Source: a virus. Taken from it: a stretch of 6,046 nt of DNA. The position numbers and the translations under genes were made by a program. The stretch spans positions 1-6,046 of the IMG/VR virus record IMGVR_UViG_3300020029_000059; one strand, given 5' to 3'. Of the stretch, positions 1-3,732 are shown in pieces. The notes beneath the pieces are model-generated. The model ran no database searches and was not told the origin of the DNA. It saw only the letters and a list, made by a program, of their open reading frames with translations. How positions within the stretch are numbered: position 1 is the stretch's first letter; each line of letters begins with the position of its first letter.

Positions 1-121
1 AATGTTGCACTACGATACCGGAGTTGCTCAAGAAGCTGAAGCGTTTCACTTGATACGGCCTGCAAGACATCAGTCTCTTGCCCGTTCTGAGACAACGCAA
101 ACATACAATCTGATATTTCCG
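1..121. repeat. Left copy of the 121-nt exact direct terminal repeat (circular-genome assembly redundancy)
   Basis: Compared base by base with 5926-6046 and found identical. It lies inside the Rep coding sequence, so it is not a biological repeat of the genome. Confidence 0.95.
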
Positions 122-1613
122 GATATTGGGCACGAAGATTATAGACATCTCGTAAACTTTCATAGTCCTTTTTCTTCTCATACTCTATACCTGTTTTAAT
201 GATAAAATAAATACGACCGGAATAAGCACTAATATCAGAGCCAAAGAGAGGAAGATGCCAATTGCGGAAGAATTTATAGACATATAGGAACAATCGATAT
301 AACTTATTAATATAAGATTCAACATCGAAATCAATAGAACAGTAACCAAACCTAGTAAGGCACCGAGAAGCATGTAATATAATCTTATCATCATCAGTAA
401 GAGTAGAATTAGCCTTGAGATACTTATAATAAACACGAGCAAGATCTAGAATTGAATCCTGTCTGTAGGCAACGAATCCGAATCTCGCGATTCTCTGTGG
501 CGTTCGATGCACAGCGAGAAGAATTCGAGCAATCGCAGAACTATCATCATTGCAAGCAGATGAGAATCGTGGAAGTAAGGAACGGATATACGACATGGGT
601 GGAGTTGACCGAACACTGACGCCATTGAAGTTATAGACTCTTCCGTTAACGACAGAGTCGATTTTTTGCTCAATTTGCGCATAAGCGTCTTCACCTTCCA
701 CGTAGTCACAGCCTTTTTCAAAAAATCCAACAGACGATCTCGATTTGGGTCTAAACGCGCGGCATGAGCGATATAACAAGGGAGAAGAGCACAAGCTGTT
801 AACGTAACTCGCAACGTACGAGCCAGCTCCACCAGCGGAACGTTGGAAATCTGAACGACCGAGTTTCCAACTCTTATCGTGACAGTATCGTAAAACCTCG
901 GAGACTTTCTCCGAGTTTGTGAATAATAAGAGATGATAATGCGGGCGGAAATGCACGGGTCCGTACTCACCCACAGCGTAGAAATGTAACGTTTCATAAG
1001 AACCTAATGTTTGAAATAAATGTTTACGCAAACGTTTAATATAATTTTGGACATCAACATAGTTTAAGAAGGGAATAAGGTTATCACGACCGTATTGCGA
1101 AGAAGCGGGATAATCCGTTTTGTCAACGGCCTGCGTCTTAGTAATAAAACTACGAATAGCGTCCATACTAAGAAACCAATTATCTTTAACAGGTACATAT
1201 TCCTTAATTTCACGGTCAAACGGCACAGTGCCTTGAACCTGTTCGAAGAATATATGACGCAGCATGAAGTTATCATCACATCGATATTCAGAGACAGGGA
1301 TATATTGATGATGTTCATGACCAAAATGAATATCTCCTGAAATACCTAAGACATCCTCATAATCACTGTGAAGAACCTTACAATTCATAAGAGGAATATG
1401 AGCATTGTCATAAGTAAGAGTTACAAAATAAGAATACTTAAAAGCACTTCCAGCGGTCTTCACGCGCATGGACGCTTTTTTAGCTCTCTTATGAATACAA
1501 TAATCGCATTGACCACAATCTACGGCAATACGTGCACCAGTATATTTATTCGTAATAAACGAACGATGCTGACAATGATCAACAGCCTTAAGCAAATCAG
1601 GAGAAAATTTCAT
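1..1613 (-). CDS. VP4: Replication initiator protein (HUH rolling-circle endonuclease, VP4 / phiX174 A-like). N-terminal 537 codons plus 2 nt; the ORF continues over the circular junction to the stop at 5855-5853, for 561 aa in total.
   Basis: Hand translation from ATG 1613-1611 is open to position 1. It begins MKFSPDLLKAVDHCQHRSFITNKYTGARIAVDCGQCDYCIHKRAKKASMRVKTAGSAFKYSYFVTLTYDNAHIPLMNCK. It contains a Cys cluster (CGQCDYC), motif 1 (FVTLTY), an HUH motif GPVHFRPHYHLLLF (HYH at 941-933) and a two-tyrosine motif GSYVASYVNS (Tyr codons at 818-816 and 806-804). That last motif closely resembles the Y-x3-Y active site of phiX174 protein A. An in-frame TAA at 1622-1620 lies upstream of the ATG. 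The ORF is absent from the track only because it has no stop inside the window on this side. Confidence 0.93.
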   Translation of the reverse strand, partial: MKFSPDLLKAVDHCQHRSFITNKYTGARIAVDCGQCDYCIHKRAKKASMRVKTAGSAFKYSYFVTLTYDNAHIPLMNCKVLHSDYEDVLGISGDIHFGHEHHQYIPVSEYRCDDNFMLRHIFFEQVQGTVPFDREIKEYVPVKDNWFLSMDAIRSFITKTQAVDKTDYPASSQYGRDNLIPFLNYVDVQNYIKRLRKHLFQTLGSYETLHFYAVGEYGPVHFRPHYHLLLFTNSEKVSEVLRYCHDKSWKLGRSDFQRSAGGAGSYVASYVNSLCSSPLLYRSCRAFRPKSRSSVGFFEKGCDYVEGEDAYAQIEQKIDSVVNGRVYNFNGVSVRSTPPMSYIRSLLPRFSSACNDDSSAIARILLAVHRTPQRIARFGFVAYRQDSILDLARVYYKYLKANSTLTDDDKIILHASRCLTRFGYCSIDFDVESYINKLYRLFLYVYKFFRNWHLPLFGSDISAYSGRIYFIIKTGIEYEKKKDYESLRDVYNLRAQYPEISDCMFALSQNGQETDVLQAVSSETLQLLEQLRYRSAT

Positions 1614-1615
1614 AA

Positions 1616-1924
1616 TTATTTACGTTTATCAATAACTTGGTGACGACTACGGTGACCAAATGAAATATGAATAAATGTAGGATACAATATCAGCTGGTCA
1701 AACACATGAATATTATCCGAATATCTATGAATATGTTCAAGCAACTGATTATAAGAAGTAGAACCATAAGGCTTCATATCAATAGCTTCTCCGGTCAAAT
1801 GTTGAGAAGTAGGAACACCACCACAAGCCTTATTTTGTTCAGGAGTACGACGAGCACTAGTTATTGTAAAATGAACATTAGAAACCAACAAGTACTCAAG
1901 AAAATGTATAAGAGCATAATTCAT
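1616..1924 (-). CDS. Zn-dependent peptidoglycan peptidase, Peptidase M15 (M15A/M15_3, YcbK/VanY-like fold), 102 aa; candidate endolysin or entry hydrolase
   Basis: The sequence TSARRTPEQNKACGGVPTSQHLTGEAIDM matches the family signature S-x-R-(T/S)-x-x-x-N-x-x-x-GG-x-x-x-S-x-H-x6-D. A C-terminal His lies in FIHISFGH. No signal peptide or TM segment is apparent. The start overlaps the stop of the preceding small ORF as ATGA. Confidence 0.85.
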   Translation of the reverse strand: MNYALIHFLEYLLVSNVHFTITSARRTPEQNKACGGVPTSQHLTGEAIDMKPYGSTSYNQLLEHIHRYSDNIHVFDQLILYPTFIHISFGHRSRHQVIDKRK

Positions 1925-2004
1925 AATCCAATAGCGTTAAGGATGTAACCTAAAGCGGCAGAAACAGCTCCAATGATAATTTTCCAAATATTATTACTTT
2001 TCAT
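1921..2004 (-). CDS. 27-aa single-pass membrane peptide (MKSNNIWKIIIGAVSAALGYILNAIGL); candidate holin-like or membrane partner of the M15 peptidase
   Basis: This is an internal ATG (2004-2002) of the track ORF 1921..2145. Only these 27 codons lie outside the overlap with the 64-aa gene (apart from 11 nt). 14 of the 27 codons end in T, matching the usage of the real genes. A polar, basic N-terminus is followed by a 19-residue hydrophobic stretch. The stop TGA overlaps the peptidase ATG (ATGA at 1924-1921). Confidence 0.5.
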   Translation of the reverse strand: MKSNNIWKIIIGAVSAALGYILNAIGL

Positions 2005-2188
2005 TGCTTTGAATCTTAAGTTCAACAAAATCATTTTCCTCTTTAATCGAATCCACAATAACAATAAGACCCAATGAAGAAACTCGCTCAGAATAGCTTC
2101 CAAGACCATCGAGAGAATTGACAATATAAGGCGAAACAACATCACGACCAGTAGTTTTTTCCTTAACTGAGATAATAAATTTCTGCAT
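1994..2188 (-). CDS. Hypothetical 64-aa protein, first gene downstream of the long non-coding region
   Basis: It is an ATG-to-TAA ORF with balanced, non-hydrophobic composition (MQKFIISVKEKTTGRDVVSPYIVNSLDGLG...). It sits in the coding orientation shared by all other genes. I recognise no motif. Confidence 0.6.
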   Translation of the reverse strand: MQKFIISVKEKTTGRDVVSPYIVNSLDGLGSYSERVSSLGLIVIVDSIKEENDFVELKIQSNEK

Positions 2189-2589: not shown

Positions 2590-3732
2590 TCACCGACCAT
2601 TATAAATAGTAGTATTACGTGGGCCATAATCATTACGATAGATATTGGCACCAGGACGAAACGAACCAATAAAATTACCGGCACCAGCAGCAATAGAACC
2701 AATACCACGAGCAACAGATTCCCAATAATGAGTACGACTTTGTTTACGGACCAATTCAGCACCATACTCAGCAGCTTTCTGATTTGCCATAGAAGTTTTA
2801 TACTCCACATGCTTACGAAGCTTAACATTTTTATAATCATAAGTGCTATCACGATACTGCAACTCGTTAGAAGCATTAGCGGCCTTAATCAAAGAATCAG
2901 CAGTTTCAGAAGCTACACGATTATCAATCTTTTTTCCGGAAGTTTCAGCGGAGATAAGAATAGCACGCTGAATTTCAGTCTGAATTTGCTTCTCCGTAAG
3001 AGCGCCTTGAGTCTGAAGATTAACTAGTGTTTGCGCCTTAATGAACAAATCAGCTTGTTGATTCTGGTCCATATATTTATTCATAATACGCTGGGCTTCA
3101 GAATTAAGCAAAATTTGCGTTTCCTGTGCGGCCGAAATACGTTCGGCAAACTGGGCATTCCTCAGATTTTGAGCTTCAGTAGACTGGTCCAGAGCAGCAG
3201 AAATACGACCTGTTTCATTATTCCAGTAACCAGAAGAACCAATAGCCAGATTTTTCCAATTAGTAAGGCCTCTATAATAATCAGACAAAAGAGGAGTTAC
3301 GGTATCAGTCTGACGCGCACGAGAACCTGATTCGTTAGCTGCGGCTTCTGAGGCCTTGGCCTGAGCAAGAGAAGCAAGAGATTCAAAAACACCAGAAAAA
3401 TTAGGTTTATAAGCTTGCATACTAGGAACAGGAGCAGCAGTAGCAGCAGCTCCGCCAGAGGCAGGAGACCTAGAACCAGCCATAGCGGCAGAACCCTGAA
3501 CAAATGGGTTCAAACCGCGAGAAATCATAGCATTGGGAGAATTATAAGCATTATTCATACCCCACATCTGTTGCTGCCAATCACGCTGAATCTGAGCTTG
3601 CTCAGCATTAAATGCATTTTGCTCACGCATCATACGGAGATTAACCTTATTCTGATGATTCTGATTAGCCATGCCGACAATATTATCGGTAAGGTTTCCT
3701 ACAGAAGAAGCAATAGCGTCAAACAAGCCCAT
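2590..3732 (-). CDS. VP2: Minor capsid / DNA pilot protein (VP2, phiX174 H-like), 380 aa
   Basis: The N-terminus MGLFDAI...MMREQNAFNAEQAQIQRDWQQQMWGMNNAYNSPNAMISRGLNPF matches the conserved N-terminal block of microvirus VP2/pilot proteins (N-F-N-A-E-x-A-Q-x-x-R-D-W-Q...GLNP). A Gly/Ala/Ser-rich linker follows, then a long Q/A/E-rich stretch that is presumably helical, as expected for a tube-forming pilot protein. The start overlaps the upstream stop (TAATG). Confidence 0.88.
   Translation of the reverse strand: MGLFDAIASSVGNLTDNIVGMANQNHQNKVNLRMMREQNAFNAEQAQIQRDWQQQMWGMNNAYNSPNAMISRGLNPFVQGSAAMAGSRSPASGGAAATAAPVPSMQAYKPNFSGVFESLASLAQAKASEAAANESGSRARQTDTVTPLLSDYYRGLTNWKNLAIGSSGYWNNETGRISAALDQSTEAQNLRNAQFAERISAAQETQILLNSEAQRIMNKYMDQNQQADLFIKAQTLVNLQTQGALTEKQIQTEIQRAILISAETSGKKIDNRVASETADSLIKAANASNELQYRDSTYDYKNVKLRKHVEYKTSMANQKAAEYGAELVRKQSRTHYWESVARGIGSIAAGAGNFIGSFRPGANIYRNDYGPRNTTIYNGR

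What the first reader, a model, noticed from the sequence alone, without database searches (positions are those of the whole stretch)
1921..2004. 27-aa transmembrane micro-ORF translationally coupled (ATGA) to the peptidase
The track ORF 1921..2145 is mostly an off-frame artefact over the 64-aa gene. Its last 27 codons (MKSNNIWKIIIGAVSAALGYILNAIGL) occupy otherwise unassigned sequence. They use the T-ending codon bias of the real genes (14/27) and encode a basic N-terminus plus one 19-residue hydrophobic helix with small-residue (G/A/S) spacing. They end in an ATGA overlap with the peptidase start. A membrane peptide immediately upstream of a signal-less wall hydrolase is the holin-endolysin arrangement. 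At 27 aa it would be much smaller than characterised holins, so it could represent an unusual miniature lysis or export partner.
Basis: inference. Interest (0 to 1): 0.6.

Follow-up and report, generated by a model that had tools for sequence, protein, structure and literature searches.

The report
Membrane peptide gene beside microvirus endolysin
The 27-codon frame is a real, very strongly conserved membrane-helix gene joined to the cell-wall peptidase of a gut microvirus. In this lineage it is probably also made as a 73-residue two-helix protein hidden in a second reading frame of the upstream gene, which makes it the best untested candidate for how these phages open their host.

Summary
ORF 1921..2004 (-) encodes 27 aa, has 14/27 T-ending codons, and its stop overlaps the start of a 102-aa M15_3 peptidase (ATGA).

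The peptide recurs in more than 110 distinct related microvirus sequences. Its pN/pS is 0.12 in its own frame and 1.0 and 8.0 in the other two frames. The ATGA junction is kept in 107/110. A sister clade, with only about 50% identical peptidases, keeps a homologous 28-29-aa peptide (pN/pS 0.10).

In this clade the peptide's frame stays open across codons 16-64 of the 64-aa gene in 107/110 sequences (about 4 stops expected, P(0) about 0.009). Synonymous divergence there is the lowest in the genome (0.19-0.25 against a median of 0.51). The ATG at 2142 is kept in 105/110. The likely product here is therefore a 73-aa overprinted two-helix protein, with the 27-aa form as an internal-start product. 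The sister clade lacks the long form.

The function (a holin-like partner of a signal-less endolysin) is inferred, not shown. No Pfam, PHROG or NCBIfam family matches. A profile comparison points weakly to the Bacteroidales 'smalltalk' micro-proteins, one copy of which (L328) sits just upstream of a wall amidase.

This scan has already reported the same peptide-peptidase pair in several other microvirus genomes.

The parts
1921..2004 (-). 27-codon micro-ORF plus TGA. It forms the conserved C-terminal membrane helix (TMD2) and has its own conserved ATG at 2004..2002.
   Evidence: pN/pS 0.125 in frame against 1.05 and 8.0 out of frame; ATG kept in 108/110; hydropathy.
1921..2142 (-). Long form: a 73-codon ORF (P0001) from ATG 2142..2140, in the +1 frame over codons 16-64 of the 64-aa gene. 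It has an N-terminal hydrophobic segment (about residues 2-31), a basic linker, and then the 27-aa helix.
   Evidence: stop avoidance; synonymous suppression in the host gene; ATG in 105/110; GAT 106 against GAC 1 at the Asp codon that supplies the AT of that ATG; called as a 73-74-aa protein in 218 metagenome entries; all-helical model.
1994..2188 (-). 64-aa gene of unknown function. It is the overprinted host frame, and its last 11 nt overlap the micro-ORF start.
   Evidence: codons 2-15: pN/pS 0.21, pS 0.417; codons 17-60: pS 0.188; homologue in the sister clade, whose ...EK-stop ending overlaps the peptide's MKS start as in the window.
1921..1924 (-). ATGA junction: the stop of the membrane ORF overlaps the start of the peptidase.
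   Evidence: ATGA 107, GTGA 2, and TAA in the one peptidase-less genome, of 110.
1616..1924 (-). 102-aa Peptidase_M15_3 without a signal sequence or anchor; the putative endolysin.
   Evidence: Pfam E 5e-10; PHROG 894 endolysin, E 2.6e-16; in most relatives a stop lies 4 codons upstream of its ATG in its own frame.

Best explanation
Window 1921..2142 (-) holds a small membrane-protein gene that is translationally coupled to the phage's M15 peptidase and most likely acts as the membrane-damaging (holin-like) partner that lets this signal-less wall hydrolase reach the peptidoglycan at the end of infection.

Shown:
- The C-terminal 27 codons are protein-coding and under the strongest purifying selection in the genome.
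- They encode one transmembrane-type helix with a small-residue/Asn face (G12, A16 or S15, G19, N23, G26).
- Their stop overlaps the peptidase start.
- In this clade the same frame is kept open, with a conserved ATG, back to 2142 inside the 64-aa gene.

Inferred:
- Two nested products are made. One is a 73-aa protein with two hydrophobic segments and a basic linker. The other is the 27-aa helix, started at the internal ATG, probably by ribosomes that terminate at the 64-aa gene's stop 8 nt downstream.
- Ribosomes finishing either product re-initiate at ATGA, so peptidase synthesis is tied to membrane-protein synthesis.
- The helices oligomerise in the inner membrane and breach it.

The short peptide is the ancestral unit, because it stands alone in the sister clade. 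The N-terminal extension arose by overprinting in this clade.
For: Coding status: pN/pS is 0.125 in frame against 1.05 and 8.0 out of frame, over 63 distinct versions. In 34 genomes pN/pS is 0.11 for the peptide and 0.30 for the peptidase.

Association: the peptide was found in every peptidase locus of both clades that had upstream sequence. ATGA or GTGA is present in 109/110.

Sister clade: a 28-29-aa homologue has pN/pS 0.10 and off-frame values of 1.9 and 2.2. The peptide is identical in three records whose peptidases are only 50-56% identical to the window's.

Long form:
- There are 0 stops in the +1 frame of the 64-aa gene against 3.7 expected, P(0) 0.008, while the other five genes have as many as expected.
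- Of 110 sequences, 18 carry a stop only upstream of the ATG and just 3 carry one downstream of it. Every peptidase gene has 2-7.
- Stop-creating codons at at-risk sites: 3/1477, against 32% in the peptidase.
- By column: 1 of 14 at-risk columns ever shows a stop-creating codon, against 9 of 11 in the peptidase, although 11 of the 14 are polymorphic.
- pS is 0.188 over the overlap, against 0.417 before it and 0.44-0.48 beside it. These are the lowest 44-codon windows of the genome.
- The ATG is kept in 105/110.

Context:
- Relatives of the peptidase in Bacteroidales prophages are directly preceded by small membrane proteins.
- One Bacteroidales contig fragment (L276) with phage-type genes has a putative holin, a membrane-anchored M15 and a putative u-spanin in a row. 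These roles were assigned by eye from the translations.
- In L328 a 'smalltalk' micro-protein, weakly similar by profile (hhalign 76.8%, E 2e-5; controls 0.15-0.18%), lies 21 nt upstream of an Amidase_2.
Against: - There is no experimental or expression evidence of any kind.
- The protein lacks the charged hydrophilic C-terminal tail typical of holins, because it ends with the helix.
- No holin family in Pfam, PHROGs or NCBIfam matches it.
- The extreme sequence conservation is unusual for holins and would fit a specific host target better.
- One relative (L137) keeps the membrane ORF but has no peptidase, so the peptide may not need the enzyme.
- The long form is interrupted in 3/110 sequences, lacks its ATG in about 5/110, and is not conserved in the sister clade.
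- Whether a 27-73-aa protein can make holes large enough for a 12-kDa enzyme is unknown.
Confidence: 0.5

Rival explanations
1. Only the 27-aa peptide is made. The upstream open frame would then be kept open for another reason, for example so that ribosomes starting at 2142 are carried to the ATGA restart site. It would not contribute a functional N-terminal segment.
For: The sister clade works with the short form alone: it has no conserved upstream ATG, has stops in 4/22, and shows only a mild pS drop. The internal ATG is the better conserved of the two (108/110 against 105/110). Three clade-1 genomes carry a stop between the two ATGs. The weakly similar smalltalk peptides are about 30 aa.
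Against: Avoiding stops alone removes only a few synonymous choices at about 14 codons. It cannot explain a more than two-fold drop in synonymous divergence over 44 codons. It also cannot explain the retention of T at the third positions that give hydrophobic residues in the +1 frame (195 of 218 not-at-risk L/I/V codons end in T).
Confidence: 0.2
2. The peptide is a single-gene-lysis type 'protein antibiotic', like phiX174 E or the 37-aa LysM of phage M. Its helix would bind and block a conserved host membrane enzyme of wall synthesis, and the peptidase would be an accessory.
For: The peptide is the most conserved coding segment of the genome. It is more conserved than the enzyme across clades. 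L137 keeps it without the peptidase. Small transmembrane lysis proteins that arise by overprinting are the rule in Microviridae and ssRNA phages (established knowledge; LysM in PMC12506998).
Against: The peptidase is present in 108 of 109 contigs that carry the peptide, in a fixed start-stop overlap. That is hard to explain if the enzyme were dispensable. A cytoplasmic enzyme would gain nothing from a mere block of wall synthesis. There is no similarity to E or LysM.
Confidence: 0.17
3. The peptide is a detached signal or anchor for the peptidase. It would be joined to the enzyme by recoding (frameshift or read-through), or it would hold the enzyme at the membrane by binding it.
For: The peptide looks like a signal peptide: a basic n-region, a hydrophobic core and a small-residue end. 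One Bacteroidales contig fragment with phage-type genes (L276) has an M15 enzyme with an N-terminal anchor that starts similarly. In most sister-clade genomes the peptide and enzyme are in the same frame, separated by one stop and one codon.
Against: The junction occurs in at least two relative frames and with 3-21-nt spacers. The last four codons hold no slippery site, and in most relatives a stop lies 4 codons upstream in the peptidase frame. TAA and TAG interchange at the stop. No fused protein exists among 1.8 billion representatives. The similarity to the L276 anchor is weak (E 0.017 for a single comparison). If the smalltalk link is real, the same kind of peptide sits beside an unrelated hydrolase fold.
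Confidence: 0.06
4. The peptide is a membrane protein with a role unrelated to lysis, for example superinfection exclusion or assembly at the membrane, and merely shares an operon with the peptidase.
For: No functional data exist. The bacterial smalltalk peptides are uncharacterised and were not seen here in any recognisable prophage.
Against: The adjacency and start-stop overlap with a wall hydrolase are near-perfect across two clades. Nothing else in the 5.9-kb genome could give a cytoplasmic peptidase access to the wall.
Confidence: 0.07

Closest known systems
Holin-endolysin cassettes of tailed phages, for example class II holins and pinholins of 65-95 aa with two TMDs. A Bacteroidales example seen here is L276: a 66-aa two-TMD protein, an anchored M15_3 and a putative u-spanin (roles assigned by eye).
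   Same: A small membrane protein sits immediately upstream of, and is translationally linked to, a muralytic enzyme. The long form is of holin size, with two hydrophobic segments and two in-frame starts.
   Different: It has no charged C-terminal tail and no detectable homology (hhalign probability 0.1% to the Bacteroidales two-TMD proteins). The two starts are 46 codons apart rather than 2-3. The core unit is only 27-29 aa. Half of the gene is overprinted on another gene. The phage is an ssDNA phage.
phiX174 protein E (Microviridae single-gene lysis protein, an MraY inhibitor) and the 37-aa LysM of ssRNA phage M (a MurJ inhibitor; PMC12506998).
   Same: All are tiny single-helix membrane proteins of very small phages. 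They arise by overprinting, and the transmembrane helix is the active part.
   Different: There is no sequence similarity. Here the peptide is coupled to a real peptidoglycan hydrolase, which E- and LysM-type lysis does not need.
'Smalltalk' micro-proteins of Bacteroidales (NCBIfam NF033879, Pfam PF20096 DUF6486), which are uncharacterised.
   Same: They are about 30 aa, with a basic N-terminus carrying a V/I-W-K motif and one hydrophobic helix. In L328 the gene lies 21 nt upstream of a wall hydrolase. The profile-profile match is 76.8%, E 2e-5 over 23 columns, with controls at 0.15-0.18%.
   Different: Neither family model detects the phage peptide. The phage peptide lacks the C-terminal G-V-T-S-C end. 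Sequence identity is only 22%.
M15_3 peptidase genes of gut Microviridae (Roux et al. 2012, PMC3394797).
   Same: The neighbouring enzyme is of this already described kind, and that paper proposed it as an endolysin.
   Different: That paper noted only an adjacent 'unknown ORF' in 5 of 11 genomes. GenBank records leave the peptide unannotated. In three records (Dulem virus 226, 238 and 243: L010, L012, L011) the peptidase CDS is instead extended over it in the wrong frame.

Membership tests
Holin (functional class; criteria recalled from Young-laboratory reviews, not re-read here) | Small protein with at least one transmembrane domain | tested here: met
   hydrophobic 19-mers with KD 2.03 at residues 1-19 and 55-73 of P0001; the model is all-helical.
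Holin (functional class; criteria recalled from Young-laboratory reviews, not re-read here) | Gene adjacent to, usually just upstream of, the endolysin gene | tested here: met
   The ATGA overlap with the M15_3 peptidase is kept in 107/110 sequences.
Holin (functional class; criteria recalled from Young-laboratory reviews, not re-read here) | Highly charged, hydrophilic C-terminal domain | tested here: not met
   The protein ends with the hydrophobic helix (...N-A-I-G-L-stop). The basic residues lie in the linker and at the peptide's N-terminus.
Holin (functional class; criteria recalled from Young-laboratory reviews, not re-read here) | Dual-start motif giving holin and antiholin | tested here: inconclusive
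   Two conserved in-frame ATGs are present (105/110 and 108/110), but they are 46 codons apart, and use of either is unproven.
Holin (functional class; criteria recalled from Young-laboratory reviews, not re-read here) | Forms timed lethal membrane lesions that release endolysin | not testable with these tools
   This needs expression and lysis assays.
Any catalogued holin or lysis family (Pfam, PHROGs, NCBIfam) | Significant match to a family model | tested here: not met
   The best hits are PHROG E values of 0.13-0.4, confined to single transmembrane segments.
Smalltalk / DUF6486 (NF033879, PF20096) | Match to the family model above its cut-off | tested here: not met
   There are no hits, even at E 10, by hmmscan or by a six-frame search of the genome.
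Smalltalk / DUF6486 (NF033879, PF20096) | C-terminal G-V-T-S-C-[IM] end (lipobox-like Cys) | tested here: not met
   Three of the four bacterial copies fetched end this way; L330 lacks the Cys. The phage peptides have no Cys.
Smalltalk / DUF6486 (NF033879, PF20096) | About 30 aa, a basic N-terminus plus one helix, next to a wall hydrolase; profile similarity | tested here: inconclusive
   hhalign gives 76.8%, E 2.1e-5 over 23 columns at 22% identity, against 0.15-0.18% for two control alignments. The profiles are small. Hydrolase adjacency was seen in L328 only.
Single-gene lysis proteins of Microviridae (E type) | Overprinted membrane protein that is sufficient for lysis without a muralytic enzyme | tested here: inconclusive
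   Overprinting is met for the long form. Sufficiency is untestable here. One peptidase-less relative exists (L137), but 108/109 contigs keep the enzyme.
Peptidase_M15_3 (the neighbouring gene) | Pfam model match and an H-x6-D...H zinc motif | tested here: met
   E 5e-10, 39.9 bits against a cut-off of 23.2, covering profile positions 44-107 of 108. H42, D49 and H86 are invariant.

The most novel reading that the evidence does not exclude
A 27-29-residue membrane helix would be the constant lysis effector of a large group of gut microviruses. That would make it the smallest phage protein known to open the membrane for an endolysin. It would also be a cysteine-less relative of the bacterial 'smalltalk' peptides, so Bacteroidales and their ssDNA phages would share a minimal, so far undescribed way of getting signal-less wall hydrolases across the inner membrane. 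This clade would have added a second helix to it by overprinting the upstream gene.
Probability: 0.3. Interest if true: 0.8.

Novelty: new variant of a known kind. Interest (0 to 1): 0.62.

Why it matters
How microviruses other than the phiX174 group lyse their hosts is unknown. These phages are among the commonest in animal guts.

Roux et al. (2012) found the peptidase, but nothing that could bring a signal-less enzyme to the wall. This gene is unannotated in GenBank records, is more conserved than the enzyme, and is physically coupled to it, so it is a concrete and easily tested candidate for that missing step.

It is also a clean natural example of gene birth by overprinting: a stand-alone 28-29-aa gene in one clade and an N-terminally extended, dual-coded version in the sister clade. 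If the link to bacterial smalltalk peptides holds, it would give that uncharacterised family a first functional hypothesis.

Tried and rejected
1. Fusion of peptide and peptidase by frameshift or read-through. Rejected because the frame relation and spacer vary, most relatives have a stop 4 codons upstream in the peptidase frame, and no fused protein appears in the 1.8-billion-protein profile search. The apparent 'fusions' there (P0134, P0146 and others) look like chimeric or truncated contigs.

2. The 124-aa 'peptidase' annotated in Dulem virus 226, 238 and 243. Its N-terminal extension is the off-frame reading of the conserved peptide and is not conserved as protein.

3. Family searches in Pfam, PHROGs and NCBIfam found nothing significant.

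4. Homology to the 65-68-aa two-TMD proteins upstream of M15_3 genes in Bacteroidales prophages: none.

5. Descent from the N-terminal anchor of an exported M15 enzyme (L276): BLASTP gives E 0.017 over 15 residues, too weak to use.

6. AlphaFold2 of the 73-aa form gives one long helix (pLDDT 88, pTM 0.44), which says nothing about topology or oligomers. No fold search was run.

7. Sequencing runs: only wastewater contigs hold part of the stretch (at most 0.44 of the sampled words), and the RNA rows have small shares.

8. A second peptidase-profile scan of viral contigs returned only the same clade.

9. Complex prediction was not run. The peptide is under 30 residues, and the preferred model does not require specific binding.

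Full report
WHAT IS THERE

The window is a complete circular microvirus of about 5.9 kb, with all genes on the minus strand:
- Rep: 3..1613, continuing across the ends
- a 102-aa peptidase: 1616..1924
- the 27-codon ORF: 1921..2004
- a 64-aa ORF: 1994..2188
- a non-coding region
- the pilot protein (VP2), scaffold protein (VP3) and capsid protein (VP1)

The peptidase matches Pfam Peptidase_M15_3 (E 5e-10) and PHROG 894 'endolysin'. It has 27 codons, 14 of them T-ending. Its ATG at 2004 lies 8 nt before the stop of the 64-aa gene. Its TGA overlaps the peptidase ATG as ATGA. Residues 9-27 form one hydrophobic helix after a basic N-terminus. The peptidase N-terminus is not signal-like.

IS THE MICRO-ORF A GENE? 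YES.

Thirty-five GenBank microviruses (from lemur, dog and human samples) align to this region at 68-85% nucleotide identity. A peptidase-based scan of IMG/VR gave 58 loci. A back-translated peptide pattern gave 109 contigs, of which the 80 listed are all 5.4-9.4 kb. Every locus with upstream sequence has the ORF.

The 21-codon core exists in 63 different nucleotide versions. These vary at 19/21 third, 10/21 first and 2/21 second codon positions. Nei-Gojobori pN/pS is 0.125 in this frame and 1.05 and 8.0 in the other two. Among 110 distinct sequences the junction is ATGA in 107 and GTGA in 2. The peptide's ATG is kept in 108. In the same 34 genomes the peptide (pN/pS 0.11) is more constrained than the peptidase (0.30).

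GenBank records do not annotate the ORF. In Dulem virus 226, 238 and 243 the peptidase CDS was instead extended upstream over it in the wrong frame. That extension is not conserved as protein, and in most relatives a stop lies 4 codons before the true ATG.

A SISTER CLADE

Microviruses whose peptidase is only about 47-56% identical to the window's carry a homologous 28-29-aa peptide in the same place. These are L071, L181-L203, bajarodmic virus 410, Dulem virus 257 and mar62. The peptide starts M-K-S over the ...E-K-stop end of the homologue of the 64-aa gene and ends 3-21 nt before, or overlapping, the peptidase ATG. Its pN/pS is 0.10, with off-frame values of 1.9 and 2.2.

Microviruses with the longer (143-150 aa), independently placed M15 genes show no such ORF.

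THE LONGER ORF IS NOT AN ARTEFACT IN THIS CLADE

The peptide's frame is +1 relative to the 64-aa gene.

1. Stop count in the window. Resampling synonymous codons predicts 3.7 stops in that frame over the 64-aa gene, P(0) = 0.008. None is observed. The +1 frames of the other five genes carry as many stops as predicted.

2. Stop positions across relatives. Among 110 distinct sequences, 18 have a +1 stop at nt 4 or 22, which is upstream of an ATG at nt 46. Only three (L066, L124, L128) have one downstream of it. Every peptidase gene has 2-7.

3. At-risk codons. At Leu/Ile/Val codons followed by A or G, where some synonymous codons would create a +1 stop, stop-creating codons make up 3/1477 in codons 16 onward, 19/242 in codons 1-15, and 388/1205 in the peptidase.

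4. At-risk columns. Counted by alignment column, which avoids counting inherited states many times, 11 of 14 at-risk columns vary at the third base, but only one ever shows a stop-creating codon. In the peptidase the figure is 9 of 11.

5. Synonymous divergence. In the 64-aa gene it is 0.417 in codons 2-15 and 0.188 in codons 17-60. The non-overlapped peptide core has 0.439 and the peptidase 0.476.

6. Genome-wide comparison. Across all six genes of 45 genomes, 44-codon windows have a median pS of 0.512 and a 5th percentile of 0.280. The windows in the 64-aa gene are the lowest of all, at 0.22-0.25.

7. Start codon. The ATG (window 2142..2140, formed by the codons GAT GTT) is present in 105/110. 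The Asp codon is GAT 106 times and GAC once, whereas other Asp codons are GAC 19-23% of the time.

The hydrophobic look of the +1 frame proves nothing by itself, because T-ending codons give xTx codons in that frame. The stop avoidance and the synonymous suppression are not explained by that bias.

The resulting 73-aa protein (P0001) has an N-terminal hydrophobic segment, a linker carrying eight Lys/Arg residues, and then the conserved helix. AlphaFold2 models it as one long helix (pLDDT 88). Gene callers already list it as a 73-74-aa hypothetical protein in 218 metagenome entries.

In the sister clade there is no conserved upstream ATG, 4 of 22 genomes have stops in the upstream frame, and synonymous divergence falls only mildly (0.54, 0.46, 0.36). 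The short peptide is therefore the common unit, and the extension is specific to this clade.

WHAT IT PROBABLY DOES

Nothing here tests function. The argument rests on position and logic:
- A cytoplasmic 12-kDa wall peptidase needs a way through the inner membrane.
- This is the only membrane protein next to it, and their translation is coupled.
- In Bacteroidales prophages the related (37-46% identical) M15_3 enzymes are directly preceded by small membrane proteins.
- One such contig (L276) shows, reading its translations by eye, a complete row of a putative holin, a membrane-anchored M15 and a putative u-spanin.

The small-residue/Asn face of the helix would suit helix-helix packing; this is inference.

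Several points count against a textbook holin:
- There is no charged C-terminal tail.
- No family matches.
- Conservation is unusually strong.
- One relative (L137) keeps the ORF but has Rep where the peptidase should be.

These points keep alive the rival that the helix targets a host membrane enzyme, as phiX174 E and the 37-aa LysM do.

RELATIVES OUTSIDE MICROVIRUSES

A profile of the 73-aa protein, searched against 1.8 billion representative proteins, found only 28 clusters. By the 17 sequences inspected, these are the two microvirus clades or broken contigs, and none is a peptide-peptidase fusion.

Following a lead from earlier notes of this scan, I fetched four 'smalltalk' (NF033879) micro-proteins from Bacteroidales genomes. 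The family models do not detect the phage peptide, and the phage peptide lacks their C-terminal Cys. hhalign, however, aligns 23 columns at 76.8% probability (E 2e-5), against 0.15-0.18% for control alignments. In L328 the smalltalk gene lies between an HU-HIG gene and an Amidase_2 gene that starts 21 nt downstream. This is a weak but interesting link, not a membership.

PRIOR WORK

Roux et al. 2012 (PMC3394797) described the peptidase and suggested a lysis role. They mention only an 'unknown ORF' beside 5 of 11 genes. Full-text searches found no paper on this peptide or on smalltalk function.

Earlier follow-ups in this scan reported the same peptide-peptidase pair on other microvirus genomes. 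One of them reported the overlap with the upstream gene.

VERDICT

The lysis role is plausible but untested.

Noticed in passing
window 446..997 (-), inside Rep: A 183-aa ORF in the +1 frame of Rep (start M-K-R-Y-I-S...) is open at the same place (median 185 codons, Rep codons about 203-388) in 96 of 97 relatives. The longest alternative-frame stretches in VP1, VP2, VP3 and the peptidase have medians of 34-80 codons. The same Rep segment has the second-lowest synonymous divergence in the genome (0.24-0.27 against a median of 0.51). This is probably a second overprinted gene.
   Followed up: partly
L010, L011, L012 (GenBank PP511396, PP511322, PP511887): The 'peptidase' or 'hypothetical protein' CDS of 124 aa starts at an upstream ATG and runs over the conserved membrane peptide in the wrong frame. 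The true start is the internal ATG of the ATGA junction.
   Followed up: yes
L137 (IMG/VR contig of 5400 nt), about 2835..3230: This relative keeps the 64-aa gene and the membrane ORF (ending ...I-G-V, TAA) but has Rep about 30 nt downstream and no peptidase. It is the only such case among 109 contigs carrying the peptide. The contig is open inside VP1.
   Followed up: partly
L188, L193, L195, L197 (sister clade), between the peptide stop and the peptidase ATG: The short spacer is built from one to four copies of TCGTAA-like units, so its length varies from 3 to 21 nt and the frame relation changes.
   Followed up: no
L276 2134..3249 (contig of 6127 nt in a Bacteroidales MAG): This is a fragment with phage-type genes and what looks, by eye from the translations, like a complete lysis row: a 66-aa two-TMD holin-like protein with a charged tail, a 153-aa M15_3 enzyme with an N-terminal membrane anchor, and a lipoprotein with a C-terminal TMD (u-spanin-like).
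   Followed up: partly
L328 617..1676 (Parabacteroides MAG): An HU-HIG gene, a 35-aa smalltalk gene and a 143-aa Amidase_2 gene lie in a row, with the amidase starting 21 nt after smalltalk ends. Smalltalk itself was found in only 2 of 61 genomes sampled from that order.
   Followed up: partly
window 1616..1924 (-): The microviral peptidase covers only positions 44-107 of the 108-position Pfam model. The related prophage enzymes are 130-160 aa, with about 25-45 additional N-terminal residues.
   Followed up: no
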